A program made the translations under genes and the position numbers. A stretch of DNA of 64,000 nucleotides from a phage. Position 1 is the stretch's first letter. Each line of letters begins with the position of its first letter. Positions 2,900 to 46,092 of the stretch are shown here, piece after piece. The notes below the pieces were generated by a model. The model was not told where the DNA came from. It ran no database searches and saw only the letters and a program-made list of their open reading frames with translations. The stretch lies in NCBI GenBank assembly GCA_020619395.1, contig GCA_020619395.1_4860.1; one strand, written 5' to 3'.

Positions 2900-3736
2900 T
2901 TACTTCATAAGCCTGCGGAGCAGTTCAATTACAAATGGCTCATTCACCAGTTTTAGACAGTTATAAATACGGTCCATTGTGGTATCCTGTTTCCAGCTGT
3001 ACTTCTCTGCGGTTTTTAACACCACCCCACGCGTTTTGCGATCGAGGGGTGAAAACATTATCCCGTCGCCAAACAACGTCAGGAACGCTTTGTTAAACGG
3101 AATATGTTGGGGTTTCCCGTTAAGTTTGGTGTACCACTCCAGTTGTGTTTTCACTTTACCGGTGTGCGATTCCAACAAACCCAGTTTAGGGAAATCTTTA
3201 CGTGCCAGGAGATCAGCTGGCATGTGGGTCAGTAACAGTGTGTCGCGGCTACCCTCTGGGAAAACATCGAATTGACGGAAGTCATTTTCGTGTTTCTCAC
3301 CGTACATTTTTAAGGTGTCGTGTTCCAGTGCATTATAGTGCAGCTGGTTTGGCGTCATCTTATCCTGACCGCCTGCAATGTTTTTGAACGAGGCTTCGGG
3401 AAACACTTTGTTAGCGCTACGATAGCTACAAAGGTACGGAACGCATAACACCGAAGGGGCTACCGCTCTCGCGGTAGCCGTAAGATTATTAATATCTTCT
3501 TCAATCGATGTTAGCATCACGTCGGGTGTTAACCGTTCTCTATTCTCTTCAAACGCATAGAAGGCGTTACGGAACAATGTCCGGAGATTCAGGTATATTT
3601 CCTGATAGGAATGGATAGGCAATTCGCCTTTCCAGTCGGCGTATTCGCCGGTATGCAGCAGACCTTCAAACGCCAGCGAACTGGCGATTGACACTGAATA
3701 GAACCCGAAAGTGCGATCAACACTGATTGGATTCAT
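2900..3736 (-). CDS. hypothetical protein (278 aa)
   Basis: long ORF with AGGAAA upstream; start overlaps the stop of the upstream gene by 4 nt. Confidence 0.65.
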   Translation of the reverse strand: MNPISVDRTFGFYSVSIASSLAFEGLLHTGEYADWKGELPIHSYQEIYLNLRTLFRNAFYAFEENRERLTPDVMLTSIEEDINNLTATARAVAPSVLCVPYLCSYRSANKVFPEASFKNIAGGQDKMTPNQLHYNALEHDTLKMYGEKHENDFRQFDVFPEGSRDTLLLTHMPADLLARKDFPKLGLLESHTGKVKTQLEWYTKLNGKPQHIPFNKAFLTLFGDGIMFSPLDRKTRGVVLKTAEKYSWKQDTTMDRIYNCLKLVNEPFVIELLRRLMK

Positions 3737-4884
3737 TCTATTTTCCTAATGATTGCAGTAACAACATCAGGGTCGTACTTCACTGATGTTAGCTCTTCGA
3801 GAACCAACCGTTCGAAGTTCTCAGGAGTAGGTTTTTCGTACACTGGGGCTTCGTTCGAAAAACTCTTTACTAACAACTCCTCTTCTTCAGAGGAGCGCAC
3901 ACGTTCTCCAGATATGTGGAACGTGTATTCTTTTTTCCACCGACTGACGTATTCGGCCATCGGTGAACCTGCGTAATACTCGACTTCAAATCGTCCAATA
4001 GCGGACGAAGGATGATTGTCGATGTATTCTAATGCAGAAAGACAAGCTGCTAACTGCGCATCAAAGTCTTCCTGTGCCCGAATCTTTTTCTGCGGGCACG
4101 CGCGTGGGTTAACCAGGAAATAATCCCTGGCAACCGTATCGGTGAAATCGACAAGAGCTACGCCTTTGTCCTCCTCTTCACCTTGAGATAGCCGCTCAGG
4201 ACTACCTACAACTCTTATCTTGTCTAATTCTTTAGGTCGATGGTCGTGCCCGATAAATATCAGGTGCTTGACTCTCGGCAACCAGAACTCCTCGTGGAAA
4301 GAACGAGGGGACTCGACAGGGAGTTGAAACTGGAAGCAGCCGTGCATGAAGATAAAGTCTAACTTCTCCAAGCCTCGTGTCGCCATCAGTTCTGCCATTT
4401 CTGCCTCAGTGGCAGCAGCATTAATTTCATCGACGCCAGCAGCTTTATATTCGTCCTGCACCCAACCTACCATCGCATCGAGAGCCGGATCGTAAAATAT
4501 CCCGATCCCTGCCAAATACAAACAGTCTGCGCCTATACTGATGTTCAGCGACTCAACTATTTTGGACTGGCCATGGTCATGGGACGGTGTTCCCTCAACG
4601 ATGCGAACTGCGGTATTAGTGGCCTTAGACCACTGGAGCAACCACGTCAAGAAGCCCACAGCTTCTTGAGAATCTTCCTGGCGAAGATGTCGGGAATCAT
4701 CAAATAAATCCCCTGCTATATAAAAGGCATCAAGCGTATTTTCGCAGCTAATGAGTACCTCACGTATCACATCCACGATGTGCCAAGTAGGCACACGTTT
4801 ATGCAACAAATGGATATCGTTAGTGTTCAAAAGGCGCTTAACGCCTTCTGGTTTCTTAGGAGGTTTAGTAATCTTCTCCATCAC
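3733..4884 (-). CDS. SbcD/Mre11-like metallophosphoesterase nuclease
   Basis: calcineurin-like phosphoesterase motifs in order: NDIHL, IAGDLFDD, GTPSHDHG, FIFMHG, IGHDHRP. Confidence 0.65.
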   Translation of the reverse strand: MMEKITKPPKKPEGVKRLLNTNDIHLLHKRVPTWHIVDVIREVLISCENTLDAFYIAGDLFDDSRHLRQEDSQEAVGFLTWLLQWSKATNTAVRIVEGTPSHDHGQSKIVESLNISIGADCLYLAGIGIFYDPALDAMVGWVQDEYKAAGVDEINAAATEAEMAELMATRGLEKLDFIFMHGCFQFQLPVESPRSFHEEFWLPRVKHLIFIGHDHRPKELDKIRVVGSPERLSQGEEEDKGVALVDFTDTVARDYFLVNPRACPQKKIRAQEDFDAQLAACLSALEYIDNHPSSAIGRFEVEYYAGSPMAEYVSRWKKEYTFHISGERVRSSEEEELLVKSFSNEAPVYEKPTPENFERLVLEELTSVKYDPDVVTAIIRKIE

Positions 4885-5539
4885 CGATCCCTACGATTGG
4901 CTGCGTTTGAGCTGGGGCTTGCACCGAGGTCTCTGCAGCTGTCGCCGTGTTTTTACCGCCGGTAATTTTATCGACGTATTCAACCAACCCTTCCGGATAT
5001 GGCAATTGACCACCCACACCGTAGCGTCGGAAAATCCAGTTCAGCAAGTCAATAATGTACTTCGCACGAACTGAATTTTCAGCCAGTGACATATTTTCGA
5101 TCCCGGTTAGGGTGTAATCGATCATCTTGTACATCTGGGTTTCACCGACGGTTGCAATCACATCAACCTGACGACGGATGTACTCAGTCTCATCGGAGAG
5201 TGAAGGTTCGCCGTCAACGGTGATTAATGAGCGGCCGGTGTTCAACAGAGCAGGGATGGTAAATAGCAGTTTGCTGTTATCAGCATCGTCCACAATCTGC
5301 AGGGGTACAAATGGACTTCCTACGTAAGCCGTCCAGGTCTCTTCGTTAAAAGTACCATCAAGCATACCGGACAACAGTGGTAAGCCCTGGCGACGGAACT
5401 GTGCTTCGGTGAACACACTGCAAACGTTCTGGCTTTCCGCCAAATCGTTTTCAATCTCTTTGAGTTTGTTATACTCAAAGCGCATCTGCTCATTCATCTG
5501 ACTTAACGGTACACCGTTAAATGTAGGTTCCTGGCTCAT
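4865..5539 (-). CDS. hypothetical protein (224 aa)
   Basis: ORF in the minus-strand gene series. Confidence 0.6.
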   Translation of the reverse strand: MSQEPTFNGVPLSQMNEQMRFEYNKLKEIENDLAESQNVCSVFTEAQFRRQGLPLLSGMLDGTFNEETWTAYVGSPFVPLQIVDDADNSKLLFTIPALLNTGRSLITVDGEPSLSDETEYIRRQVDVIATVGETQMYKMIDYTLTGIENMSLAENSVRAKYIIDLLNWIFRRYGVGGQLPYPEGLVEYVDKITGGKNTATAAETSVQAPAQTQPIVGIGDGEDY

Positions 5540-5925
5540 TACATATCCTCAATCGCACTCGACTCGGTATCCACGTACCGCTCAACATCGTACCATTCAC
5601 CGTCTACAACTTCTTGCACACGGACACTAATGAAGATGCGGTAGCGCACATCTGAATCTTTTAAAAACTCCCAGCTGGTTTCAACTTCAACGCCAGCAGG
5701 AAATACGTTCCCGTAGAGGTTCTCCAAATCCATTTTAATCTGGGCAACCATCCCGTCGGGATCTTGTGCAAACACAGCTTGCGTATACGCAAGTGATTTA
5801 ATGTTCCCACGATAAACCACCGATTGGCTATAGCCAGACTCGGTGTAATGGTTCATCAGCTCACGCGCCTTTTCCTGGGGTGTACGTGCCCAGCCACGTG
5901 TGGATAAGGTTCCTACCGCAATCAT
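5539..5925 (-). CDS. hypothetical protein (about 128 aa; start moved to internal ATG)
   Basis: internal ATG at 5925 has AGGAG 5 nt upstream; the listed longer ORF would read through a terminator hairpin. Confidence 0.5.
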   Translation of the reverse strand: MIAVGTLSTRGWARTPQEKARELMNHYTESGYSQSVVYRGNIKSLAYTQAVFAQDPDGMVAQIKMDLENLYGNVFPAGVEVETSWEFLKDSDVRYRIFISVRVQEVVDGEWYDVERYVDTESSAIEDM

Positions 5926-5970
5926 GTTAGCTCCTGTCAAATTCAAGGTAGGATGCTGCATACAGCCCCC

Positions 5971-6010
5971 AGTGAAGAAAAAAAGAGGGGCCGAAGCCCC
6001 ATCTTTTTTA
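5971..6010 (-). terminator. intrinsic terminator (A-run, GGGGC-CGAA-GCCCC hairpin, T-run; could act in both directions)
   Basis: hairpin 5987-6000 flanked by A-tract and T-tract, just downstream of the gene ending at 6008. Confidence 0.55.
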
Positions 6011-6589
6011 ACACGTCGCGCCAAGTTCCGAACAGGGATCACCATCTTCCCAGTCGAAAGCTGACATGCGTGCCCAGTTAAGTTGAATATCCACTTTATC
6101 GATTCGACTCAGTCGTACTGCACGATCTTCATTGGTAGCCCATTGCCAAATCTTATCTTCGTCGTACTTCGTCGAAATGCCCGATGTTGCTTCGCGGAAG
6201 TGGTCATCGGTACGCATATACGCATTGCCTTTGAACACATCCAACCGCGAAAAGCCGTTCTCATAACCAGTCGCCATACCGTCATTATACAACTTACGAT
6301 ATTCCGGCATGGCAACGAGGAATGGCTGTAAAGCAGCATTGGCGAACTGGAATTCACCCAACTCTTCGATCTGTCTTACCATCTCTACCGCATCGCTATA
6401 ACGTAATTTACGTGCGGTACTGAATGTTTCACGGAAACGCTCCAGTGAGATTAAGTCCTGACAATGTTCTTTTACACGGTCAACGAGATCGGGTGCCAGG
6501 CTAGACAGCGAAAACGATTCTTTGAATACGCTGAGTGCCCCGCTACCTTCGGTCTGTTTCGTCCACACCGTGCTACCTTGTAGCCACAT
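6008..6589 (-). CDS. hypothetical protein (193 aa)
   Basis: ORF followed by a terminator hairpin. Confidence 0.6.
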   Translation of the reverse strand: MWLQGSTVWTKQTEGSGALSVFKESFSLSSLAPDLVDRVKEHCQDLISLERFRETFSTARKLRYSDAVEMVRQIEELGEFQFANAALQPFLVAMPEYRKLYNDGMATGYENGFSRLDVFKGNAYMRTDDHFREATSGISTKYDEDKIWQWATNEDRAVRLSRIDKVDIQLNWARMSAFDWEDGDPCSELGATC

Positions 6590-6602
6590 TACAATACTCC
6601 TA

Positions 6603-8198
6603 TTAGCCCATCACCGCTTCCAACGGAATGCCTTCTTCATCATCCTCATCTGCTTCAATAAGGAACTGGTTCTGCATACTGATTAGCTCGTTATGTAAAA
6701 CCATGCCGTGTTCTACGCGGTCCACATCAGTAGAAGACATAAAGCCGTTATCTGGACGGAATTGGAGTGCCAACTTCATCTCAGTTTCATCGACTGGCAA
6801 ACGTACCTGGAACTGGTCGCCATCGAAATCTCCATTTGCCATCTTGATCACACGGTCAGAGATACGCAGCGAACACTGGTTAACATCGGTAACAACTTCA
6901 TCGATGTACAGCGTTTGAATAGACAACTGTACCAGCGTTGGGTTACGTAACGGTATGACCATGATCCCAAGACCGCCTGGGGATTCACGAATCAGTTCTT
7001 TAAAGATTTCATCTACAAGCGGGTCATACTGCATTGCCGCTTTCGCAACGATACGTTCACACTGCCGTGACGAATAACCGCGTCGTAGCAGTTTGTTCTC
7101 GATGTGGGTCGACATCAACCCAACCATCCAACGCCATGGTGCTTTTAACTTCCAGGCATCATGTGGTTCTGAGATAGGTGAGATGGTTGCACGACCACCG
7201 AACGGGATATGGGTAGAACCCAATTTCGCACGATAGTCACCCGGTTTACCTTCCATAGACTCACGACGGAAGTCCATGTGGAAGTACGTTAACTGACGGT
7301 TCGCCTTCAAAGCGCGACTAATCAGAAAACGTGGTTCGATCGCTTTACGCCGCGTATAGAGCAACGCGATATTTTTCACCGCATCAATAGCACCCGTGAA
7401 CACTGGGTCTACCATGACACCACGACGACCTTCCTCAGTAACGATAAGTTTAGAGGAGATTAGCGGTAAGTGTCTTGGGAAGAATGCGTGACGTTGCGTT
7501 TCGAATAGCTCCTTCCATTGTAAACGTAAGCGTTCACCTTCAGCGGCGTTATGCCGATTAGGTGCGAAGATTTCCTTCCAGGCTTCTGGCGTGGTAAGGA
7601 TGTTAAAGATACTAACGTGGTTATCAACCAGATTGCGCAAGCCACGAACGAAACCGTGTTCTTCCAATACACGTTTCACAGCATGTGCGCGTTTACCGTC
7701 TGGTTCTTCTATACGGTAATACGGGTCAATCATCCACATCATCAAGTCATTACCGCGTTCGATAGTGACCTTGTTACGTTCAAACTTCTTCAACTTGCTA
7801 TTAAAGAAAGCATTGAACATTGCCCAGAATCGTGGGTTGACGAAGTTACCCATTTCATCAGGTGCACGTAACCAGACATCGGATTCAATTCGATGTTCAG
7901 TTACAACATAGCCACACGTCGGACACTTACAACCGAGATTGTAACGATGCGCGATCGGTGCCGGACAATCCAAACTACAAATCGGTGCAGAGTTCAGTTC
8001 TTCGTCAACGATTCTGTTCTGTACCATGCGATCGATAAGTTCAGCAACTTCGATCGCATCCCCGTTAACGGCGACATCGTTAATAATAGTGGGTGGTTTA
8101 ATACCTTTGGCTGCAGCTTCTATTTGCAAATCGGACAAATAGTTATCCTGACTAACCAACCGGCCGGATATTCCGTAGAATTTTGGTACCTTTCTCAC
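6603..8198 (-). CDS. multisubunit RNA polymerase beta-prime N-terminal-like subunit (probable non-virion RNAP)
   Basis: Cys4 cluster CSLDCPAPIAHRYNLGCKCPTCG near the N-terminus; RNPTLVQLSIQ...MANGDFDGDQFQVRLP matches the bacterial beta-prime RQPTLHRLGIQ...NADFDGDQMAVHVP catalytic segment; GTG start with GAGG upstream. Confidence 0.7.
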   Translation of the reverse strand: MRKVPKFYGISGRLVSQDNYLSDLQIEAAAKGIKPPTIINDVAVNGDAIEVAELIDRMVQNRIVDEELNSAPICSLDCPAPIAHRYNLGCKCPTCGYVVTEHRIESDVWLRAPDEMGNFVNPRFWAMFNAFFNSKLKKFERNKVTIERGNDLMMWMIDPYYRIEEPDGKRAHAVKRVLEEHGFVRGLRNLVDNHVSIFNILTTPEAWKEIFAPNRHNAAEGERLRLQWKELFETQRHAFFPRHLPLISSKLIVTEEGRRGVMVDPVFTGAIDAVKNIALLYTRRKAIEPRFLISRALKANRQLTYFHMDFRRESMEGKPGDYRAKLGSTHIPFGGRATISPISEPHDAWKLKAPWRWMVGLMSTHIENKLLRRGYSSRQCERIVAKAAMQYDPLVDEIFKELIRESPGGLGIMVIPLRNPTLVQLSIQTLYIDEVVTDVNQCSLRISDRVIKMANGDFDGDQFQVRLPVDETEMKLALQFRPDNGFMSSTDVDRVEHGMVLHNELISMQNQFLIEADEDDEEGIPLEAVMG

Positions 8199-21090: not shown

Positions 21091-21150
21091 GATGCTTACC
21101 TTTTATAGTCGAGTTGGGGGAATTCAGATGAGGCTTTCTCATCTCACTTA

Positions 21151-21165
21151 GGTAATATCTATCTG
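21151..21165. promoter_or_regulatory. promoter-like motif GGTAATATCTATCTG (variant)
   Basis: shares the core TAATATCTATCT; about 60 bp upstream of the start at 21090. Confidence 0.35.
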
Positions 21166-21181
21166 TGAATATTTGGAATAC

Positions 21182-21225
21182 AAAAAAAAAATAAAAGAGT
21201 TGTCCTCACTCCGAAGAGTGAGGAC
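21182..21225 (-). terminator. intrinsic terminator (GTCCTCACTC-CGAA-GAGTGAGGAC on plus, UUCG loop on minus, then T-run)
   Basis: perfect 10-bp stem preceded on plus by a 14-nt A-tract, downstream of the gene ending at 21316. Confidence 0.65.
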
Positions 21226-37713: not shown

Positions 37714-39759
37714 ATGACTTTTATTCCACGAAACGGCGCGCCGTTGAATAACAAGCAAGGTTGGCAGGATAACTCTGTCCCCGAGCTTGTGCGTACCCCT
37801 ACGGGTGACGCAATTCATAAGCCGCTGATCTTCACCTTTGCCGCGCGCGGGGTAGACAACGAGGCGTTCCCGTTAACCGGGGATAATGCACTGTCTCTGC
37901 TTGGTCGCAATGTCTTTGACTTGCGAGGCCCCTACGCGACGTTCAACACGCCCTATCAGGCGATGTTCAACGCTAACGCAAACGAGTGTATGTATCAGCG
38001 CTTGATCCCTGAAGATGCGAAAACCGCAAGTGTTCGCGTATTCGCCGACGTACTCGAAACGAAAGTTCCGTCCTACGAACGCGACAGCAACGGGATCGTT
38101 CAGTACGACAACTCGGGCAAGCCCAAGATCGAAGAACAAGTTGACGGTTTGGTAATCGTCTTCCGTTCTGTCGTAATCGACGAAACTACCCCGGCCATCG
38201 GCGCAGGTGTGGTTATCGAGGGGACGATGACTGGCGAAGGCGGCACGAAATCGAAGCTGTATCCGTTGTTCGATATCGCAGGCCCGTATGCGGGTGCTGA
38301 CGTCAACGGTTTCGGTTTCAAACTGATCCCACTCAGCGAGAAATCCAGCCCGGCTCTGACCTCCTCCTATCAAAATGAAGTCGGTGGTCGTGTTTACACC
38401 CTGCAATGGTTCGAAACCCTGGCAGGCGTGACTTCTCCGGTAGTGTGGAAAACTCTTACTGGCATGAGTAGCATCAATTTTAGCTTTAAGCCCGATGCAT
38501 ACTATCAGCCGATGAGAACGCAACTCGACTTCGAAGTTGTTGTTGCGGATGCATATCGTCAGACGATGCCTGACATTGGCGAGCTGCCAGATTATGGTCC
38601 TTTCGAGCAGTTCTATCTGTATCGCGAGAACCTGGAAACTGTACTGGGCTTGGCTCAGGCCGCTATCACAACTGATGCGCCTGCTGACCCGTATATGGTT
38701 GACATCTTTGGCGGCTATGATTTACTGGGCCAGCCTTACGATGGTCTTCAGGTAAACCCGGCTACTGAAACCGGTAAAGTTGTGTTCTCCGCATCCAACA
38801 TCCACTACCTGCAAGGTGGTAGCGATGGTACCATGAACAACGACGTTTACGACGAACTCGTTCGCCGTGAAATGCTGCTGTTCCCGGATGGCGGTAAAGT
38901 CCGTTACGACAACGAGCTGAAATACTCGCTGGGTTGTTTCTGGGACTCTGGCTTTAGCTTCGATACTAAAGCTGCGCTCGTGAACTTCATCGGTCGTTCA
39001 CGTAACACCTTCTTGACGCTGGCGACTCACGTTCACAACCAAGGTCGTAACGATGAGCAGACAGAAGAAAGTGCAAAAATCGCCCTGATCGAATTGATCA
39101 CTGCGGTACCGGAATCTGCCTATTACGGTACTCCGGCTGCACGTGGTATGGTCACTGGCCAATCGGCGTTCATCAAGAACTCTTCCTACAAGAAGCCTGT
39201 TCCGATGAACTATTCCCTGGCGAACTTCTTCTCGAAGTACCTGGGTGCTGCTGAAGGTCGTGCAAAACCGGCTTATCGTTTCAGCCGTGGCGAACTGACG
39301 ATTATCGAAGATCTGACTGACCTGAGTATGCCGTGGAAAGGCAACGAAGTGTATGCATCTGACTGGGATGTGTCGCTGATCACTGCCCGTTCCTACGACT
39401 ACTATCGCTTGTTCATTCCGGCGATTCAGTCAATCTACAGCGAAGATCGTTCTGTACTGAACAACGCCCTGTTCAACTTCATGATGACCTACGTCTATCG
39501 TGTTTCCGACCGTGTATGGGCGGACATGTCTGGCGAAGCGGCCATGACGGATGATGAACGTGCGAAGATGATTGAGAACAAAATTATCGAACGTCTGGAA
39601 GGCCGTCTCGATAACGTTGCTGTCGTCACTCCGAAGGCGTACTTCACTGCAGACGATAAATCCAATGGTTACTCTGTGACGCTGGACCTGATCGCTGAAG
39701 GCGGTGTGCTGCTCACCCAGTTCAACACCACTATCAAAGTTTACCGTCGGGAGAGCTAA
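37714..39759 (+). CDS. tail sheath protein candidate (681 aa)
   Basis: size and position directly upstream of a 291 aa gene, like a myovirus sheath-tube pair; GGAG RBS; shared terminator after the pair. Confidence 0.45.
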   Translation: MTFIPRNGAPLNNKQGWQDNSVPELVRTPTGDAIHKPLIFTFAARGVDNEAFPLTGDNALSLLGRNVFDLRGPYATFNTPYQAMFNANANECMYQRLIPEDAKTASVRVFADVLETKVPSYERDSNGIVQYDNSGKPKIEEQVDGLVIVFRSVVIDETTPAIGAGVVIEGTMTGEGGTKSKLYPLFDIAGPYAGADVNGFGFKLIPLSEKSSPALTSSYQNEVGGRVYTLQWFETLAGVTSPVVWKTLTGMSSINFSFKPDAYYQPMRTQLDFEVVVADAYRQTMPDIGELPDYGPFEQFYLYRENLETVLGLAQAAITTDAPADPYMVDIFGGYDLLGQPYDGLQVNPATETGKVVFSASNIHYLQGGSDGTMNNDVYDELVRREMLLFPDGGKVRYDNELKYSLGCFWDSGFSFDTKAALVNFIGRSRNTFLTLATHVHNQGRNDEQTEESAKIALIELITAVPESAYYGTPAARGMVTGQSAFIKNSSYKKPVPMNYSLANFFSKYLGAAEGRAKPAYRFSRGELTIIEDLTDLSMPWKGNEVYASDWDVSLITARSYDYYRLFIPAIQSIYSEDRSVLNNALFNFMMTYVYRVSDRVWADMSGEAAMTDDERAKMIENKIIERLEGRLDNVAVVTPKAYFTADDKSNGYSVTLDLIAEGGVLLTQFNTTIKVYRRES

Positions 39760-39762
39760 TAG

Positions 39763-40638
39763 ATGGCAATCAAAGATCGTCTCATTTTGCCTGATCAGGG
39801 TCTGCACGTCGACGGCGGCCAGTACGATATGGTCAACGCGTTCTCCTCGGGCCAAAACGGCCCGGTTGGACAGGTTGGCAAGTTCGTTACTAACGCCTCT
39901 CGTCTGCGTCGTAACGTCATTGCGCGTGTCATGGAATTCCCTCGTTGGGTGGATTACATGCCGAACCCGCAAATGTGGCGTCAGGCTATCAAGTCCTTTA
40001 TCGAGGTTCACTCCGAGATTACTGGTCTGGATAAAACCCTGAGCCATGCGGCAGTTGAAACTCAACAGGGCCGTAACAACCGCACCCAGTATGAAGCTGG
40101 TCTGGTAACGGAAGCACTGTCCTCTGTTACCTTCACCACCCCGGATAAACTCGGGAAGGTGTACCAGAACATGCTGTGGGCGTGGCTGGTTTACGGTGTT
40201 TGCGATCCCCAGACTGGTCACCCAGGCCTGGCCGCAATCAACCCGAACGTTCCTGACCACCTGCCGGATATGTACAGCATGACCGTGCTGTTCATCGAAC
40301 CGGATGCATATCAGCGTAAACCGCAGAATGCGTGGTGGTTAACGAACATGATTCCGGAAACCGCCGGCCAGGATATCGGTGAGCGTGAAACCAACACCGG
40401 TCCGCAGATTAACGAACTGTCAATCGCCTTTACCTCCCAGCAATGGACAGGTTGGGGTCCGATGCAGGCTGCTGCGAAAGAGCTGGAGCGTATGAAGCTG
40501 TACGGTCTGCGTCCTTACGAGCGCAAACTGTGGCTTACTCCGTCTCAGCAGACCGATGGTATCAACCCGGACGTCAACGCAACCCCAGGTGGCTACAACT
40601 CTGTCTCCGACGAGCAGATGGCCAACCAGATGCGCTAA
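39763..40638 (+). CDS. tail tube protein candidate (291 aa)
   Basis: follows the 681 aa gene after a 3-nt gap; bidirectional terminator directly downstream. Confidence 0.4.
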   Translation: MAIKDRLILPDQGLHVDGGQYDMVNAFSSGQNGPVGQVGKFVTNASRLRRNVIARVMEFPRWVDYMPNPQMWRQAIKSFIEVHSEITGLDKTLSHAAVETQQGRNNRTQYEAGLVTEALSSVTFTTPDKLGKVYQNMLWAWLVYGVCDPQTGHPGLAAINPNVPDHLPDMYSMTVLFIEPDAYQRKPQNAWWLTNMIPETAGQDIGERETNTGPQINELSIAFTSQQWTGWGPMQAAAKELERMKLYGLRPYERKLWLTPSQQTDGINPDVNATPGGYNSVSDEQMANQMR

Positions 40639-41285: not shown

Positions 41286-41489
41286 CTACTTCCGACCGTA
41301 TAGCGAAGCAAGCCCTTCTAACTGCAGCGGCTTCGGCATAGGTTTAGGGAAGGTGACGGTGAGACCGATTTCCTCGTGTGACGCAATGGTGCCATCCCAA
41401 CGTAACCCAGTAGCAGGATTCACATTAGGATGACATTCCACTTTAGCCCCGAGTAGCTCAGCGAGTTCCTTTGGGCTGGACGGAATCAT
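41286..41489 (-). CDS. small hypothetical protein (67 aa)
   Basis: short ORF abutting the upstream gene. Confidence 0.4.
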   Translation of the reverse strand: MIPSSPKELAELLGAKVECHPNVNPATGLRWDGTIASHEEIGLTVTFPKPMPKPLQLEGLASLYGRK

Positions 41490-41977
41490 TATTCGTCGTC
41501 TTCGTCTTCTTCATCGGTTGCCATCATGGACTTGGCAAACTCTTTACGCAGCTTGCCTTCCAACGCTTTAGACTTTGGAGAACCGAAACCGTAAGAGATG
41601 GACGCTGCCCATTCTTTCTGAGTTGGGTTTTCAGTAACCGGGCGAGAGAACACGGTAGAGAATGCTGCGTTACCGATATCCAGCGTTAAGTCCAGTGCAC
41701 CGATATCGCTATCCGCTTTCGCACGGTCAGCAATCAGACCACCGGCAACGCCACCGAACAGTTCAGTGAAGTTTGCGTCGTGCTGTCGCAGAGCGTCCGC
41801 GTCTTCCAGTGTGAAGCGATAGTCCACATCCCCAACTTTCGTTACGGGGAGTGTTTCTTCGTAAATCTTAACCAGCGGGTCGGCGTTCAGCGCCAGGTCT
41901 TCGGACAGGGTTGCTGCCGGCGTGTCCAGTTCAGCGATCAGTTTGTGCAGTGCTTTCATTGAAGTTACTTCAGCCAT
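41489..41977 (-). CDS. hypothetical acidic protein (162 aa)
   Basis: conserved leader CTTAAGGAATATTAAG-ATG; poly-acidic C-terminus. Confidence 0.6.
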   Translation of the reverse strand: MAEVTSMKALHKLIAELDTPAATLSEDLALNADPLVKIYEETLPVTKVGDVDYRFTLEDADALRQHDANFTELFGGVAGGLIADRAKADSDIGALDLTLDIGNAAFSTVFSRPVTENPTQKEWAASISYGFGSPKSKALEGKLRKEFAKSMMATDEEDEDDE

Positions 41978-42003
41978 CTTAATATTCCTTAAGGTCAGTG
42001 TGA

Positions 42004-42675
42004 TTAATCGTGTGAAAGACGAGCTTCGAGGTCGTCGATAATGGTATCTGTGAAATAGCTAATATCTAGCTGCTCCACGAAATCCCTGCGTTCCAGAATG
42101 CGCTCTGCGAAGAGCGTACCGTACCAACTAGGGACATTACTAACACCGTTGCGTCCGAACTTCTGTTGGACGTGACCAACGGCATGGAATTTTGCATCGC
42201 CTTTACTTTTACCCTGTTCACGGGCAAACAGATAAGAACGGTGCATGTAATTGCTCACGTCATCTACAGACGGTATACCACGGTCAGCTGCGGCAACTAT
42301 CTCAGAGACAATCCCGTTGTAGTTCCCTTTGTGAGAACTGCGGTGTTCTAAGACTGCATGGGCAATCGTCAAACATTCATCATCGGTAAGTTTATACTTA
42401 CGTTTGAGCACTGGCTTGTTATCCAGTATCCAGCTATACCCTTTGATGTGGTGCGACGCACGGTCTTCTTTGGTAGAGAAGATATCGTGAGCTGCCACCG
42501 CAATCAGTATCAGCTTCAGGTGTTCGGTTTGCCCAAGCATATACGCGATACGAATCGCATTTGATTTAACTGAGTTGATGTGATCCATGCGATGCGCACT
42601 ATCGGTATAACGATAGAAGTCGCGGAATTGACGAACCAGTTTTTCCCAAAGTTTGTTGAGTTCAGTGCCCTGCAT
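42004..42675 (-). CDS. HD-domain metal-dependent phosphohydrolase
   Basis: H...HD...H...H pattern: AHRMDH, AAHDIF, HAVLEHRSSH; conserved leader GTAAGGAATATTTAC-ATG. Confidence 0.5.
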   Translation of the reverse strand: MQGTELNKLWEKLVRQFRDFYRYTDSAHRMDHINSVKSNAIRIAYMLGQTEHLKLILIAVAAHDIFSTKEDRASHHIKGYSWILDNKPVLKRKYKLTDDECLTIAHAVLEHRSSHKGNYNGIVSEIVAAADRGIPSVDDVSNYMHRSYLFAREQGKSKGDAKFHAVGHVQQKFGRNGVSNVPSWYGTLFAERILERRDFVEQLDISYFTDTIIDDLEARLSHD

Positions 42676-42709
42676 GTAAATATTCCTTACGATAATGGTC
42701 GATTAACTA

Positions 42710-43099
42710 CTACGAGAATGTGTGATAGCAACGTGTCAGTGTAACCTTCACGTTATCAGAATGGTCTTCGTTGGTATACACCACCGGCCAGATAATGTTA
42801 TCAGACGAAAGCGCCTTTGATAACCCTTCAATCAATTCCTTCATTGAGGTTCCCTTCAGCCGATGGGTCGTACGCCACCTGTGTGACGTCATACGGCTAT
42901 AAACCACCATATCTGGTGTAAGGGTACTACTTTCCTCTTTAATCTCCTCTAAACGCTTCTCCTCGCTTTCTACGAAGCTTAGTAAAGCATCCGGATTTCG
43001 AACAAACTCACCGAAACGATCGTCTCGGCGCAAGCCACAAAGAACCCATAGCGTGAATGGGTCTCTGCACGCATCTACTAACCCCTCTGCGATTTTCAT
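42710..43099 (-). CDS. hypothetical protein (129 aa), possible paralog of the next gene
   Basis: N-terminal RDPFTLWVLCG resembles QDPFVAMMLCA of the gene at 43154-43552. Confidence 0.5.
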   Translation of the reverse strand: MKIAEGLVDACRDPFTLWVLCGLRRDDRFGEFVRNPDALLSFVESEEKRLEEIKEESSTLTPDMVVYSRMTSHRWRTTHRLKGTSMKELIEGLSKALSSDNIIWPVVYTNEDHSDNVKVTLTRCYHTFS

Positions 43100-43153
43100 T
43101 TTATTCCTTCCTACACAGTCAAAGGATTTGTACGATTCGTGATTTTTGAGAGA

Positions 43154-43552
43154 TCAGATTAGCTGCTCAGCGCGCAAACGTCTCAAAGTGTTCGTTGCTG
43201 TAACAAGAACATCTTGCAATTCTTGCATTGCTTTACCATCAAAGAACGGTTTAAGATGCAGGTCGCTAGTGATGAGTCCGCCGTATTTGTACGGTAGGTC
43301 TGTAATATCACAGACGATGGGATTTTTTGCTCGCCACTCTTCATCAGCAACGAGAATAAGAAACTTCCAGGCGTCTTGATTGCCGAGCGATTCACCGGTT
43401 TCTGGCTTGTAGAGTTCTTTTAAACGTTTATCGCGCTCGGAGATAAGGTATTCGTCATCAGTCAACAGACGAATTAAATCGGCTTCGTTGCTCTCGGCTT
43501 TAGCACAAAGCATCATGGCAACAAACGGGTCTTGGCGTAGTTGGTTAGTCAT
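43154..43552 (-). CDS. hypothetical protein (132 aa)
   Basis: conserved leader AGAAGGAGTATTTACA-ATG. Confidence 0.55.
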   Translation of the reverse strand: MTNQLRQDPFVAMMLCAKAESNEADLIRLLTDDEYLISERDKRLKELYKPETGESLGNQDAWKFLILVADEEWRAKNPIVCDITDLPYKYGGLITSDLHLKPFFDGKAMQELQDVLVTATNTLRRLRAEQLI

Positions 43553-43698
43553 TGTAAATACTCCTTCTGGGTAATAGTCGATTAAAGCGTTAACGTGTAA
43601 CGCTCACCTAAGTAATATATATCTCAGTTCTTTTTGAATGCAATTAATAAAATAAAAAGACTCACCCGTATCCGAAGATAGGATGAGCCTAGTGGAGC

Positions 43699-44247
43699 TT
43701 AGACTTGCAGTAGTGTCCCCGAGTGACTAATCGGGTCATTGTAGAACGCTTCACACTGGAGGCAAATGCCATCAATGTTCGGTTCTTCAGTTCGCGACCA
43801 TATTGCCGCGCCACCTTGCAAAATCCATTCTCGACAGTTACGACCATAATCGTCGACAAGCAAATTACCTCGCGAGGCGTAAGCTTTCTTCTGCCCTGAA
43901 CTTTCGGTGACGATGACTTTGTCAGCTGGTACCCCAAAGTGCTTCATGAACCACCGTTGTTTTGAATCCACAACCAATTGGTGGTCGTAGTGATCTTCTG
44001 ACCCAGAGGTGAGTATTGCCCAACTGTCGCAAAGTCTATCTACCGTTTCCAGGATTCGCTCTACACCCTCAATTGGTTCGAGTTTGTAAAACAAGTCAGG
44101 ATCGTTCTGATACATCGAACGAACCAAACTACGACGACGGAGTTCAGGTAATGCGTTAAACTCTTTAATCGTCATTCCGGGAAAATGTGTGGATAAAACG
44201 TATTTACGCCAGCGTGCAAAAACGCCATCGCTATCCAGATAAAACAT
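43699..44247 (-). CDS. HAD-superfamily 5'(3')-deoxyribonucleotidase-like phosphatase
   Basis: start at internal ATG with TAAGGA upstream gives MFYLDSDGVFA, the DxDGV nucleophile motif; later LLVDDYGRN. Confidence 0.5.
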   Translation of the reverse strand: MFYLDSDGVFARWRKYVLSTHFPGMTIKEFNALPELRRRSLVRSMYQNDPDLFYKLEPIEGVERILETVDRLCDSWAILTSGSEDHYDHQLVVDSKQRWFMKHFGVPADKVIVTESSGQKKAYASRGNLLVDDYGRNCREWILQGGAAIWSRTEEPNIDGICLQCEAFYNDPISHSGTLLQV

Positions 44248-44300
44248 TTTCTTGTCCTTATTTTGTTCCCCAACACATGAAACCAACGTCATGTAAAAAA

Positions 44301-44600
44301 TTACATCTGCTTTATTGCCATATTCGAACGATACGGCTCAGTGAGTAGAAAGTAAGTACGGCGATAGTCGATTGTCACTCCGGCCTCTTTAATGTCGCAA
44401 TAGAGCGCCATGATATCTAGCGACGCGATTCCGGAGATAATGTTATTAACCTTGCGTTTTGTATCAAAACGTTCCGATAAGATTTCGGCAAGCACTTCCT
44501 TACCAGCCTTTCCTTGGATGGCGTAGATCGCTAACGCTTTCAGTTCTTCCGGCGTCAAACAACGAAGGGTCGGAGGTATTGCGATGTTAACGACCTTCAT
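44301..44600 (-). CDS. hypothetical protein (about 99 aa)
   Basis: the listed ORF begins at GTG; the internal ATG at 44600 is the more likely start. Confidence 0.4.
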   Translation of the reverse strand: MKVVNIAIPPTLRCLTPEELKALAIYAIQGKAGKEVLAEILSERFDTKRKVNNIISGIASLDIMALYCDIKEAGVTIDYRRTYFLLTEPYRSNMAIKQM

Positions 44601-44655
44601 GCGTCCCCCTACTGTAGTGGTTTTTAGTTGTGATTTGCAGACCACGAACTAGGCA

Positions 44656-45285
44656 CTACGGTGAAACGACGTATTCGTTCAGTGCGTTATCAAAAGCAGT
44701 ACGCGTAGTGGCGACCGCCTCCGAGACCTTAACTTCACTGCGCTCCCAGTTGACGCTGATAACCAGTCGATAAAATTCGCCGGCTTTCAACAGTTGACTG
44801 GTAGACAGGCGCACGTCTTGTCCGAAACTTAAGTGATAGACAAAAACATGGCCACCGTTGCGAAGTTCTGACAACCGCATCTCGCCCAGGTAAATCGGTT
44901 TGATATCCCAGTTCGACATGCGGTGCGGTACAATCCATACTTCACCCGCCCGATTCGGTTCCTGCGTCAGGTTGACCGAAGGCTGCGCTACATCACGTTC
45001 ATCAAAACCGTAAAGATACAATCGTGTGGGTATTTCGATTGCAGAGAAGTTGTGACGTGCACCCTTAATCGCTCGCTCTAAATCGACCGAGCAGCAAATC
45101 CGGGGTACGGTCTTGTCTTCATCTGGCGCGCACGAAAGTGGGATACGCGGCGAAAACGTCGGTATCTTACACTTGCTTAAATGCAGCGGCTGTTCAGTCA
45201 GTTTACGCAACGTCAACTTTTTGGCGACGTGCGGCATCTGGCGTTCACACCACCGCTCTAATGACGGGTCGATATGTTCTGCCAT
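44656..45285 (-). CDS. hypothetical protein (209 aa)
   Basis: AGGAG upstream of ATG. Confidence 0.6.
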   Translation of the reverse strand: MAEHIDPSLERWCERQMPHVAKKLTLRKLTEQPLHLSKCKIPTFSPRIPLSCAPDEDKTVPRICCSVDLERAIKGARHNFSAIEIPTRLYLYGFDERDVAQPSVNLTQEPNRAGEVWIVPHRMSNWDIKPIYLGEMRLSELRNGGHVFVYHLSFGQDVRLSTSQLLKAGEFYRLVISVNWERSEVKVSEAVATTRTAFDNALNEYVVSP

Positions 45286-45288
45286 TTT

Positions 45289-46092
45289 TTACCAGCTCCT
45301 TACACCCATGCCCATTACCCGCAGATTGGACACTTTCGGAGCCAGCTGCAGGTATTCCTGCGCGAGTTGCTGGAGAGCACCACGACGGGACTCAGTGGCA
45401 ACAGCGCTGGTCGTTGTCGGATTGTACAGAATGTCTTCCAACACTTGACGACTGATAGGGCGGTCGACGTAAGTGCGAGTAGATTCCTGTGCCACTTTAC
45501 TACCGCGTTGAATCGCAGAGTATTTGTTACAGATTTGCAGGCCATCTTCAATAACCCAGTCAAAGGTGACCAGTTTATCGATGCGGCGTACGATTGTCGT
45601 ACCCAGACGACCTTCACGAACGATAGCACGCAGTGAGAAACACACGTTCTGATGTGGGTTCTCTAGTGCTTCCGCCAGAAGCGGACCACGTTCACGGTTA
45701 GGTTTAATCCAACCCCAGATTTCCATCACCGGCAGACCGTTACACATCTGGTCGGTCGGCTTCACTTCTACTTCGCGAATGTGCATACACACGTTACGCG
45801 TTTCGATCCATTCGTTACGTTCGATCCACTGGGCTTCGCTCATGCCTTGTTCGTATTGCGGATGGTCTTCTTCACCGAAGAGATTCCCCGCTAAAACTTT
45901 ACGCATGAAAACGTTAGAGCGCTCGAAGACATGTTTTGACTCGTTATAGGCGTAGTAAATATTCTCAGAGTTGAAAATATTCAGTGCACCTAACAGGACG
46001 TAGTAATATCCGTCCGCATCTTTCTTTAGCGTTGCCCCTTTATTGACCCCAGCGAGTGCCACGCAGTTATAACGTAGTGACAAGTTTTCCAT
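45289..46092 (-). CDS. hypothetical protein (267 aa)
   Basis: ORF in the virion-gene block. Confidence 0.55.
   Translation of the reverse strand: MENLSLRYNCVALAGVNKGATLKKDADGYYYVLLGALNIFNSENIYYAYNESKHVFERSNVFMRKVLAGNLFGEEDHPQYEQGMSEAQWIERNEWIETRNVCMHIREVEVKPTDQMCNGLPVMEIWGWIKPNRERGPLLAEALENPHQNVCFSLRAIVREGRLGTTIVRRIDKLVTFDWVIEDGLQICNKYSAIQRGSKVAQESTRTYVDRPISRQVLEDILYNPTTTSAVATESRRGALQQLAQEYLQLAPKVSNLRVMGMGVRSW

What the first reader, a model, noticed from the sequence alone, without database searches (positions are those of the whole stretch)
42004..44247. Nucleotide-metabolism pair: HD-domain phosphohydrolase and HAD 5'-nucleotidase-like gene
An HD-domain protein and a HAD phosphatase with the DxDGV nucleophile motif lie close together, separated by two small possibly paralogous genes. 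This suggests nucleotide-pool remodelling or dNTP salvage during infection, or less likely DNA-modification chemistry.
Basis: partly seen in the sequence, partly recalled or inferred. Interest (0 to 1): 0.4.

Follow-up and report, generated by a model that had tools for sequence, protein, structure and literature searches.

The report
Jumbo-phage HD hydrolase and NT5C nucleotidase
Two neighbouring genes of an SPN3US-type Salmonella jumbo phage do encode an HD-family nucleotide hydrolase and an NT5C-type deoxynucleotidase, but both belong to ordinary enzyme families, are already annotated in public phage records, and show no evidence of working as a coupled system.

Summary
The window is a Seoulvirus (SPN3US-like, nucleus-forming jumbo phage), 99.8% identical to Salmonella phage 1252.

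- **HAD gene, 43699-44247(-):** a 182-aa capped HAD phosphatase that passes Pfam's NT5C threshold. All four HAD motifs are invariant, including the D5-x-D7-G-V nucleophile motif.
- **Two small genes between them:** they are distant paralogs. They are a Seoulvirus-specific insertion and duplication. In relatives with 38-63% identity the HAD and HD genes are directly adjacent, or separated by unrelated cargo.
- **Transcription:** a conserved terminator hairpin and a phiKZ-type early-promoter motif lie after the HAD gene, so the two enzymes are in different transcription units.
- **Distribution:** each enzyme also occurs without the other in more distant phages.

The most likely function is catabolic editing or sanitation of the nucleotide pool ((d)NTP to (d)NMP to nucleoside), not salvage. 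This is inferred, not shown. A phosphodiesterase role against signalling nucleotides is not excluded. Both annotations already exist in GenBank, so interest is low.

The parts
42004..42675 (-). HD-superfamily metal-dependent phosphohydrolase of the YedJ/YpgQ subfamily, 223 aa. It is the orthologue of SPN3US YP_009153545, 'putative HD domain protein'.
42710..43099 (-). Small gene A, 129 aa, function unknown. Paralog of small gene B. Found only in the Seoulvirus/Erskinevirus clade.
   Evidence: ORF. PHROG 23206. No Pfam or NCBIfam hit. tblastn finds it in 36 phage records only. Paralogy with B. No wider homologues.
43154..43552 (-). Small gene B, 132 aa, function unknown. Paralog of A and the fastest-evolving gene of the neighbourhood.
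   Evidence: ORF. PHROG 27024. 90.9% aa identity to SPN3US where neighbours are 98-100%. dN/dS 0.40 against 0-0.17 for 12 neighbouring genes. About 16 separate 90%-identity clusters against one for A. GAAGGAG ribosome-binding site before the ATG.
43603..43642 (-). phiKZ-type early (virion RNA polymerase) promoter-like element: TTGCATTCAAAAAGAACTGAGATATATATTACTTAGGTGAG.
   Evidence: Contains TATATTAC-TTAG-GTG, which fits the published phiKZ and 201phi2-1 early-promoter consensus (PMC7058600 Table 2). The 19-nt motif occurs twice in 64 kb against 0.03 expected. It is conserved at the same place in SPN3US, SPAsTU, pEa_SNUABM_29, phiEaH2, Asesino, pEa_SNUABM_6 and ChrisDB, whichever gene follows. 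Function is inferred, not shown.
43644..43690 (-). Intrinsic-terminator-like hairpin directly after the HAD stop codon: 14 bp with one bulge, UUCG loop, then a U-run.
   Evidence: RNA fold dG -18.3 kcal/mol, z -3.5, 1 of 200 shuffles as good. A GC-rich hairpin plus T-run with a different stem sequence lies downstream of the HAD gene in 12 related loci. The simple terminator scan missed it.
43699..44247 (-). Capped HAD phosphatase of the NT5C 5'(3')-deoxyribonucleotidase family, 182 aa. It is the orthologue of SPN3US YP_009153542.
   Evidence: Pfam PF06941 33.9 bits, above the 24.8 cut-off. PHROG 420 and 2643. phmmer to human and mouse mdN/cdN at E about 0.01, with motifs II-IV aligned. Invariant D5, D7, T80, S81, K120, D132, D133. 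AF2 pLDDT 95 with five helices inserted between strand 1 and strand 2, which is a C1 cap. Foldseek top hit 3bwv at 5e-5.

Best explanation
The region belongs to an SPN3US-like, nucleus-forming Salmonella jumbo phage.

**HAD enzyme (182 aa).** It is an NT5C-type enzyme. Asp5 would form the phospho-aspartyl intermediate and Asp7 would act as acid/base. A helical C1 cap would close over a small substrate. It most likely dephosphorylates (deoxy)nucleoside monophosphates to nucleosides.

**HD enzyme (223 aa).** It is a YedJ/YpgQ-subfamily metal-dependent phosphohydrolase. By analogy with YpgQ and YedJ it most likely cleaves (d)NTPs, possibly excess or non-canonical ones, to (d)NMP plus pyrophosphate.

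**Combined effect.** If both act on the same nucleotide, the result is a two-step drain, (d)NTP to (d)NMP to nucleoside. That is editing or sanitation of the nucleotide pool in the infected cell, not salvage.

**Gene arrangement.** The genes are ancestral neighbours in this phage clade but lie in separate transcription units. The HAD gene ends one unit at a terminator. A phiKZ-type early promoter then drives small gene B, small gene A and the HD gene.

**Small genes.** They are a lineage-specific insertion that duplicated in tandem. Nothing links them to the enzymes.

**Shown:** gene structure, family membership, conserved catalytic residues, synteny, and the sequence motifs of the terminator and promoter.
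**Inferred:** substrates, any coupling between the two enzymes, expression timing and biological role.
For: **Identity of the phage.** 99.8% identity to Salmonella phage 1252 and 98.3% to SPN3US, with a Peptidase_S80 prohead protease next door.

**HAD enzyme.**
- Passes the Pfam NT5C cut-off.
- Motifs I-IV are invariant in 15 orthologues down to 54% identity, and are kept in metagenomic relatives.
- The predicted structure has a C1 cap.
- The best structural neighbour is a deoxyribonucleotidase-like protein.

**HD enzyme.**
- Profile E-values of 1.9e-11 and 5.2e-11 to 2pq7 and YedJ, and 1.7e-3 to YpgQ.
- In the HMMER alignment with YpgQ, phage H28, H32, H63, D64, D131, R146 and F150 fall on YpgQ H25, H29, H58, D59, D124, R136 and F140. 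These are YpgQ's metal ligands and substrate contacts (with PMC8177086).
- YpgQ and YedJ are reported as Mn-dependent (d)NTP pyrophosphohydrolases (PMC6692503).

**Selection.** Both enzymes are under strong purifying selection: dN/dS is 0 for HD and 0.17 for HAD, the latter from 1.5 changes.

**Neighbourhood.** It is conserved at 38-63% identity: directly adjacent in ChrisDB, Phobos, L016 and L017, and by coordinates in Wellington, Derbicus, EarlPhillipIV and pEa_SNUABM_11.
Against: - No biochemical or genetic data exist for either protein. I found no mention of gp248-gp251 in the main text of two SPN3US papers searched for these gene numbers.
- The YedJ/YpgQ subfamily holds at least three reported activities: NTP pyrophosphohydrolase, ara-AMP/dAMP 5'-nucleotidase (PenF) and cGMP phosphodiesterase (AtCN-PDE1). 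The substrate therefore cannot be read from membership.
- The phage family has two extra invariant histidines, H75 and H111. It shares them with YedJ and 2pq7 but not with YpgQ. This gives the H..HD..H..H..D pattern that is taken to indicate a two-metal site, so the chemistry may differ from YpgQ.
- A conserved terminator and promoter separate HAD from HD.
- In RAY, N1M2, PS1 and PCH45 the HD gene has no HAD gene within 3.5 kb. Vibrio phage pVp-JHP1101 keeps the HAD gene in the same slot without an HD gene nearby.
- Gene order is conserved throughout this part of these genomes, so adjacency alone says little.
Confidence: 0.5

Rival explanations
1. The two enzymes work independently, and their adjacency is only inherited gene order. 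Each performs its own housekeeping reaction. The slot between them is simply a tolerated insertion site.
For: - A conserved terminator and early-promoter motif lie between them.
- Their distributions are independent. HD homologues occur in 168 phage records, including Aeromonas, Vibrio, Klebsiella and Agricanvirus phages with no HAD gene nearby. HAD homologues occur in 135 records, including many T4-like Enterobacter, Cronobacter and Klebsiella phages.
- The slot holds 0, 1 or 2 unrelated genes in different lineages.
Against: The pair stays together across lineages in which the proteins have diverged to about 38-43% identity. The reactions predicted for the two families are consecutive steps of one pathway.
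Confidence: 0.25
2. The HD protein is a phosphodiesterase for cyclic or other signalling nucleotides: host cAMP or cGMP, Pycsar cCMP/cUMP, CBASS or Thoeris signals, or (p)ppGpp. It would be made early to blunt cytoplasmic abortive-infection defences that the phage nucleus cannot block. The HAD enzyme would be unrelated, or would remove the 5'-NMP product.
For: - PDE10A matches the profile weakly, at E 0.017-0.08, over the H-x3-H...HD segment.
- H28-x3-H32-x31-D64 fits the spacing of the PDE-type metal motif. I recall that motif from my own knowledge.
- AtCN-PDE1, an orthologue of YpgQ and YedJ, is a cGMP phosphodiesterase.
- A predicted early promoter lies upstream.
- The HD family is widespread in nucleus-forming phages.
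Against: - The best sequence and structure matches are the YedJ/2pq7/YpgQ group, not phosphodiesterases.
- Neither the window protein nor any of the 67 family members hits the PDEase Pfam family.
- Resemblance to phosphodiesterases is a general property of the HD fold.
- No defence-related context was found.
Confidence: 0.15
3. The pair serves nucleic-acid end processing or repair. The HD protein would act as a nuclease like YhaM or RNase Y, and the HAD protein as a polynucleotide 3'-phosphatase like the T4 Pnkp phosphatase domain.
Against: - The HAD model has a roughly 60-residue helical C1 cap, typical of small-molecule phosphatases. From my own knowledge, polynucleotide phosphatases of this superfamily lack a cap.
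- It passes the NT5C threshold.
- The HD protein conserves YpgQ's nucleotide-contact residues.
- No ligase or kinase gene is nearby.
Confidence: 0.05
4. The pair excludes a canonical nucleotide so that a modified base replaces it in phage DNA, as with the dTMP phosphatase and dTTPase of phages that replace thymine.
For: A dNTP pyrophosphohydrolase followed by a dNMP phosphatase is the logic of those pathways. This is my own knowledge of PBS2 and SPO1 biology and was not tested here.
Against: [quoted passage not shown] A review groups phiKZ-like nucleus-forming phages as having thymine-containing genomes. I found no modification enzyme in the neighbourhood.
Confidence: 0.03

Closest known systems
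YpgQ (Bacillus subtilis, PDB 5DQV/5DQW) and YedJ (E. coli, PDB 3GW7): Mn-dependent (d)NTP pyrophosphohydrolases of the HD superfamily. Also the uncharacterised 2PQ7.
   Same: - H-x3-H, HD and D metal and catalytic residues, and the Arg/Phe substrate contacts, are conserved.
- Like YedJ and 2pq7, the phage family has two further invariant histidines.
   Different: - Only 15-21% identity.
- It falls far below the NCBIfam YedJ equivalog cut-off: 23.9 against 286 bits.
- It has a longer C-terminal helical region, which aligns better with phosphodiesterases.
- It is phage-encoded, and no activity has been measured.
PenF (Streptomyces antibioticus) and AtCN-PDE1 (Arabidopsis): other characterised members of the YpgQ/YedJ subfamily.
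   Same: Same subfamily. PenF's H174/K178 pair has the same spacing as the nearly invariant phage H168/K172. This is by spacing only and was not aligned here.
   Different: They catalyse different reactions: ara-AMP/dAMP 5'-nucleotidase and cGMP phosphodiesterase. Family membership therefore does not fix the phage enzyme's substrate.
Mammalian mitochondrial and cytosolic 5'(3')-deoxyribonucleotidases (mdN/cdN; PDB 2JAO, 2I7D, 4L57) and the bacterial 3BWV: Pfam NT5C.
   Same: HAD core with a C1 helical cap. Motif I is DxDGV, with a motif II Thr, a motif III Lys and a motif IV DD. The protein passes the Pfam NT5C threshold.
   Different: - The sequence match to solved structures is weak: E about 0.01, with 15% identity to 3bwv.
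- The Pfam match covers residues 55-156 only, so the N-terminal motif I region is not matched by the model.
- Substrate preference is unknown.
Phage '5'-3' deoxyribonucleotidase' genes of T4-like Cronobacter, Klebsiella and Enterobacter phages (PHROG 2643).
   Same: Homologous at 29-31% identity over about 80% of the length, with a PHROG 2643 hit at 2.8e-20.
   Different: The window protein matches PHROG 420 (unknown function) better, at 6.3e-37. Those phages lack the HD neighbour. As far as I know none has been characterised.

Membership tests
HD superfamily (Pfam PF01966) | H...HD...D metal-binding residues | tested here: met
   H32 (with H28), H63-D64 and D131 are invariant in 24 close and 67 divergent family members. 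They align with the ligands of YpgQ, YedJ and 2pq7.
HD superfamily (Pfam PF01966) | Significant match of the protein itself to the Pfam HD model | tested here: not met
   The window protein has no Pfam hit at E<=1. 26 of 67 relatives do hit PF01966, best E 4.8e-9, so membership rests on transitive and profile evidence.
HD superfamily (Pfam PF01966) | All-alpha HD fold | tested here: met
   [not shown]
YedJ/YpgQ (d)NTP pyrophosphohydrolase subfamily (NCBIfam NF007515) | Score above the equivalog cut-off | tested here: not met
   23.9 bits against a 286-bit cut-off, E 2.5e-5. It is a homologue, not an equivalog.
YedJ/YpgQ (d)NTP pyrophosphohydrolase subfamily (NCBIfam NF007515) | Conservation of YpgQ catalytic and substrate residues (H25, H29, H58, D59, D124, R136, F140) | tested here: met
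   In the HMMER profile alignment to 5dqv these residues fall on phage H28, H32, H63, D64, D131, R146 and F150. Residue roles are from PMC8177086. R146 is nearly invariant.
YedJ/YpgQ (d)NTP pyrophosphohydrolase subfamily (NCBIfam NF007515) | Mn-dependent hydrolysis of (d)NTP to (d)NMP + PPi | not testable with these tools
   This needs an enzyme assay.
NT5C 5'(3')-deoxyribonucleotidase family (Pfam PF06941), HAD superfamily | Score above Pfam's gathering cut-off | tested here: met
   33.9 bits against 24.8, E 3.7e-8.
NT5C 5'(3')-deoxyribonucleotidase family (Pfam PF06941), HAD superfamily | HAD motifs I-IV: DxD nucleophile and acid/base, Thr/Ser, Lys, DD | tested here: met
   D5, D7, T80/S81, K120 and D132/D133 are invariant in 15 orthologues. 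They are retained in three metagenomic relatives. Motifs II-IV align with mdN and cdN.
NT5C 5'(3')-deoxyribonucleotidase family (Pfam PF06941), HAD superfamily | Rossmann-like core with a helical C1 cap between motifs I and II | tested here: met
   The AF2 model (pLDDT 95) has helices at 13-20, 27-32, 35-48, 52-55 and 63-72 between strands 2-4 and 76-81. The Foldseek top hit is 3bwv, TM 0.58/0.62.
NT5C 5'(3')-deoxyribonucleotidase family (Pfam PF06941), HAD superfamily | dNMP phosphatase activity | not testable with these tools
   This needs an enzyme assay.
Class I cyclic-nucleotide phosphodiesterases (considered, not adopted) | Match to the PDEase catalytic-domain family | tested here: not met
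   Neither the window protein nor any of the 67 relatives has a Pfam PDEase hit. There are only weak profile hits to PDE10A, E 0.017-0.08, over 52 positions.
Class I cyclic-nucleotide phosphodiesterases (considered, not adopted) | Structural similarity of the catalytic domain and the H-x3-H...(H)D metal motif | tested here: inconclusive
   [not shown]

The most novel reading that the evidence does not exclude
The HD protein is an early-expressed phage phosphodiesterase. It would destroy a host immune or regulatory signalling nucleotide, such as a cyclic mono- or oligonucleotide, in the cytoplasm. That would cover a weak point that the phage nucleus cannot protect. The NT5C-like enzyme would clear the product. 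The fast-evolving duplicated small genes inserted between the two would be further host-interaction or anti-defence factors.
Probability: 0.1. Interest if true: 0.7.

Novelty: new member of a known kind. Interest (0 to 1): 0.2.

Why it matters
As it stands, little. These are uncharacterised phage members of two well-known phosphohydrolase families. GenBank records of SPN3US, SPFM19 and pEa_SNUABM_8 already carry the same labels.

This analysis adds five things:
- It places the HD protein in the YedJ/YpgQ subfamily with conserved nucleotide-contact residues.
- It shows that the HAD-HD neighbourhood is ancestral in this clade.
- It shows that the two small genes are a recent tandem duplication in an insertion-prone slot.
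- It shows that one copy evolves unusually fast.
- It shows that a terminator and an early-promoter motif separate the two enzymes.

If the HD enzyme turned out to degrade signalling nucleotides, it would be a new fold among phage counter-defence enzymes in nucleus-forming phages. If it is a dNTP sanitiser, it is routine phage nucleotide metabolism.

Tried and rejected
- **Direct searches with the HD protein.** Pfam found nothing at E<=1 and phmmer against PDB found nothing at E<=10. Family profiles were needed.
- **Direct BLASTP of the two small proteins.** Not significant: 11 residues, E 0.034. Paralogy appeared only through orthologues from other phages and profile comparison.
- **Annotation of the small proteins and neighbours.** Pfam and NCBIfam found nothing for the small proteins. 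Pfam found nothing significant for the 99-aa and 209-aa upstream genes. It also found nothing for the unrelated genes that occupy the HAD-HD slot in pEa_SNUABM_6 and metagenomic contig L015.
- **Profile search of the small-protein family against 5.8 billion proteins.** It found only members of the same phage clade, with no domain labels.
- **Sigma-70 promoter and simple terminator scan.** Fewer sites than in shuffles, and it missed the bulged hairpin after the HAD gene.
- **TATATTAC alone.** Not enriched in the window: 3 sites against 1.3 expected. Only the extended motif is informative.
- **Literature.** There is no mention of gp248-gp251 in the main text of two SPN3US papers searched for these gene numbers. 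There is no HD or nucleotidase entry in the paper on the core genome of nucleus-forming phages, and no RAY gp73 localisation.
- **Names for distant HD-family representatives.** Nine of ten have no name. Several sit on 170-225 kb contigs.
- **Thymine-exclusion or DNA-modification reading.** Rejected as unlikely.
Full report
**Where the window comes from.** Bases 41400-45400 are 99.8% identical to Salmonella phage 1252 and 98.3% to Salmonella phage SPN3US. Thirty-seven phage records match, mostly Seoulvirus. The gene at 45289-46092(-) is a Peptidase_S80 prohead protease (E 1e-84). The tail sheath and tail tube genes lie at 37714-40638(+). The window is therefore part of an SPN3US-like jumbo phage of the nucleus-forming group. 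All genes of the finding are on the minus strand, in this order: protease, 209-aa gene, 99-aa gene, HAD, small B, small A, HD, and three more small genes. These converge on the tail tube gene.

**The HAD gene (43699-44247).**
- The ORF can be read back to 44292. The 15 orthologues all start at the Met of MFYLDSDGV, SPN3US is annotated that way, and AAGGA precedes 44247.
- Pfam NT5C (PF06941) scores 33.9 bits against a cut-off of 24.8. PHROG 2643, '5'-3' deoxyribonucleotidase', matches at 2.8e-20, although PHROG 420 (unknown function) matches better.
- phmmer reaches human and mouse mdN/cdN at E about 0.01, with motifs II-IV in register.
- D5, D7, T80, S81, K120, D132 and D133 are invariant.
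- The AlphaFold2 model (pLDDT 95) has about 60 residues of helices between the first two core strands, which is a C1 cap. Its best solved neighbour is the deoxyribonucleotidase-like protein 3bwv (E 5e-5, TM 0.58/0.62).
- A capped HAD enzyme of this family is expected to act on small phosphomonoesters, most likely dNMPs. The activity itself is inferred.

**The HD gene (42004-42675).**
- The protein does match the NCBIfam YedJ model at E 2.5e-5, far below the equivalog cut-off.
- A profile of 24 close homologues hits PDB 2pq7 at 5e-6.
- An exhaustive profile search found 1092 cluster representatives at E<=1e-3.
- A 67-sequence alignment of these keeps H28, H32, H63, D64, H75, H111 and D131 invariant. 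It hits 2pq7 (1.9e-11), YedJ (5.2e-11), 3djb, 3b57 and YpgQ (1.7e-3). Twenty-six of its members hit Pfam HD on their own.
- In the alignment with YpgQ, phage H28, H32, H63, D64, D131, R146 and F150 fall on YpgQ H25, H29, H58, D59, D124, R136 and F140. A review describes these as the Mn ligands and the residues shaping substrate specificity (PMC8177086).
- YpgQ and YedJ are reported as Mn-dependent (d)NTP pyrophosphohydrolases, possibly removing excess or damaged (d)NTPs (PMC6692503).

**Three cautions on the HD function.**
- The same subfamily also contains a 5'-nucleotidase (PenF, PMC11592144) and a cGMP phosphodiesterase (AtCN-PDE1).
- The two extra invariant histidines, H75 and H111, are shared with YedJ and 2pq7 but not with YpgQ. 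They give the H..HD..H..H..D pattern that the review associates with two-metal sites.

The class is secure: a metal-dependent nucleotide phosphohydrolase. The substrate is not.

**The two small genes.**
- Direct BLASTP between them is not significant.
- With orthologues from SPAsTU, pEa_SNUABM_29, phiEaH2 and Asesino the link appears. Asesino gp271 (B-type) against the window's A protein gives E 9e-9 over 89 residues. SPAsTU A against B gives 6e-7. hhalign of the A and B alignments gives E 4.7e-5 at 68% probability. The shared motifs are cRDPF, E-[RE]-[DE]-KRL and WR..N.L.G.
- Erskineviruses carry a single copy and Seoulviruses carry two. A tandem duplication in the Seoulvirus line is the simplest history.
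- The family has no homologues outside this clade and no domain label.
- Copy B evolves fast. It is 90.9% identical to SPN3US where neighbours are 98-100%. Its dN/dS is 0.40 against 0-0.17 for twelve neighbouring genes (small counts). It forms about 16 clusters at 90% identity, against one for copy A.

**Is it a pair?**
- *For.* The order protease, ~210-aa gene, ~98-aa gene, HAD, HD, then tail tube and sheath is kept in Machinavirus (ChrisDB) and Derbicusvirus (Phobos). It is also kept in three metagenomic jumbo-phage contigs whose HD proteins are 38-48% identical to the window's. In those, HAD and HD are directly adjacent, or separated by unrelated genes: 63 aa in pEa_SNUABM_6, and 225 + 143 aa in L015. 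Coordinates indicate the same adjacency in Wellington, Derbicus, EarlPhillipIV and pEa_SNUABM_11.
- *Against, transcription.* The 146-bp gap after the HAD stop holds a 14-bp hairpin with a UUCG loop and a U-run (dG -18.3, z -3.5). After it comes TTGCATTC...GATATATATTACTTAGGTGAG, which contains TATATTAC-N4-GTG. This is the early (virion RNA polymerase) promoter consensus reported for phiKZ and 201phi2-1 (PMC7058600 Table 2; general background in PMC7598289). The 19-nt motif occurs twice in 64 kb against 0.03 expected. Both elements recur after the HAD gene in the relatives. The hairpin stems differ in sequence, and the elements are present whichever gene follows. HAD therefore ends one transcription unit, and HD belongs to the next, which is probably an early one.
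- *Against, distribution.* In RAY, N1M2, PS1 and PCH45 the HD gene has no HAD gene within 3.5 kb. Vibrio phage pVp-JHP1101 keeps HAD in the same slot without HD nearby. HAD homologues are common in T4-like phages.

Coupling is plausible, because the predicted reactions are consecutive, but it is not demonstrated.

**Most likely mechanism.**
- The HD enzyme hydrolyses a (d)NTP to (d)NMP + PPi.
- The NT5C-like enzyme hydrolyses (d)NMP to the nucleoside.
- Together or separately they lower or clean particular nucleotide pools during infection.
- I rate the family assignments at about 0.9 and the mechanism as stated at about 0.5.
- Rivals, with my estimates: independent functions with inherited adjacency (0.25), a signalling-nucleotide phosphodiesterase (0.15), nucleic-acid end processing (0.05), and exclusion of a canonical base for DNA modification (0.03). 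[quoted passage not shown]

**Novelty.** SPN3US and many relatives already label the HD gene 'putative HD domain protein'. SPFM19 labels the HAD gene NT5C, and pEa_SNUABM_8 labels it 'putative 5'(3')-deoxyribonucleotidase'. No experimental work on either was found in the searches made here. These are new, uncharacterised members of known families, and interest is low. The one reading that would raise it, a counter-defence phosphodiesterase, has only generic support.

Noticed in passing
window 43603-43690 (-): A strong terminator hairpin (UUCG loop, dG -18.3) lies directly after the HAD stop. It is followed by a 40-nt element matching the phiKZ/201phi2-1 early-promoter consensus (TATATTAC-N4-GTG). 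Both are conserved in 7-12 related loci. The hairpin stem sequences differ between lineages while the structure is kept.
   Followed up: partly
window 21145-21185 (-): This is the only other site in the 64-kb window matching the extended early-promoter-like motif: tttgtattccaaatattcacagataGATATTACCTAAGTGag. I did not check which gene it precedes.
   Followed up: no
window 43154-43552 (-): Small gene B is the fastest-evolving gene of the neighbourhood. Against SPN3US its dN is 0.040 and dN/dS 0.40, while 12 neighbours give 0-0.17. About 16 clusters at 90% identity exist among otherwise near-identical phages. This may reflect diversifying or relaxed selection.
   Followed up: partly
Junction between the HAD and HD genes: window 42676-43698; L004, L007, L008, L015-L017: The slot between HAD and HD is a recurrent insertion site. 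It holds 0 genes in ChrisDB, Phobos, L016 and L017, and one gene in Erskineviruses. pEa_SNUABM_6 has an unrelated 63-aa gene there. Seoulviruses have two paralogs. Metagenomic contig L015 has two unrelated genes of 225 and 143 aa with no Pfam match.
   Followed up: partly
GenBank records LR535901, LR535903-LR535908, LR535911-LR535913, LR535917 (Salmonella phages SPFM1, 5-10, 12, 14, 15, 20): These records match the region only as many short pieces: up to 40 pieces, 45-80% coverage, and proteins split or truncated. That looks like assemblies full of small indels and frameshifts rather than real divergence. Several 'HD domain' and 'hypothetical' proteins from them are artefactual fragments (P0048-P0053, P0072-P0076, P0246-P0254).
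   Followed up: no
L012 (Klebsiella phage N1M2), locus coordinates 3378-7555: In this distant relative the HD homologue also sits just upstream of the convergent tail tube and tail sheath genes. The HD gene's position next to the tail module is therefore older than its association with the HAD gene.
   Followed up: no
window 39430-40260 (-) and 39704-40042 (+): Long ORFs of 276 and 112 aa overlap the end of the tail sheath gene and the tail tube gene, on the opposite strand or out of frame. They have no counterpart in the SPN3US annotation and are almost certainly not genes.
   Followed up: no
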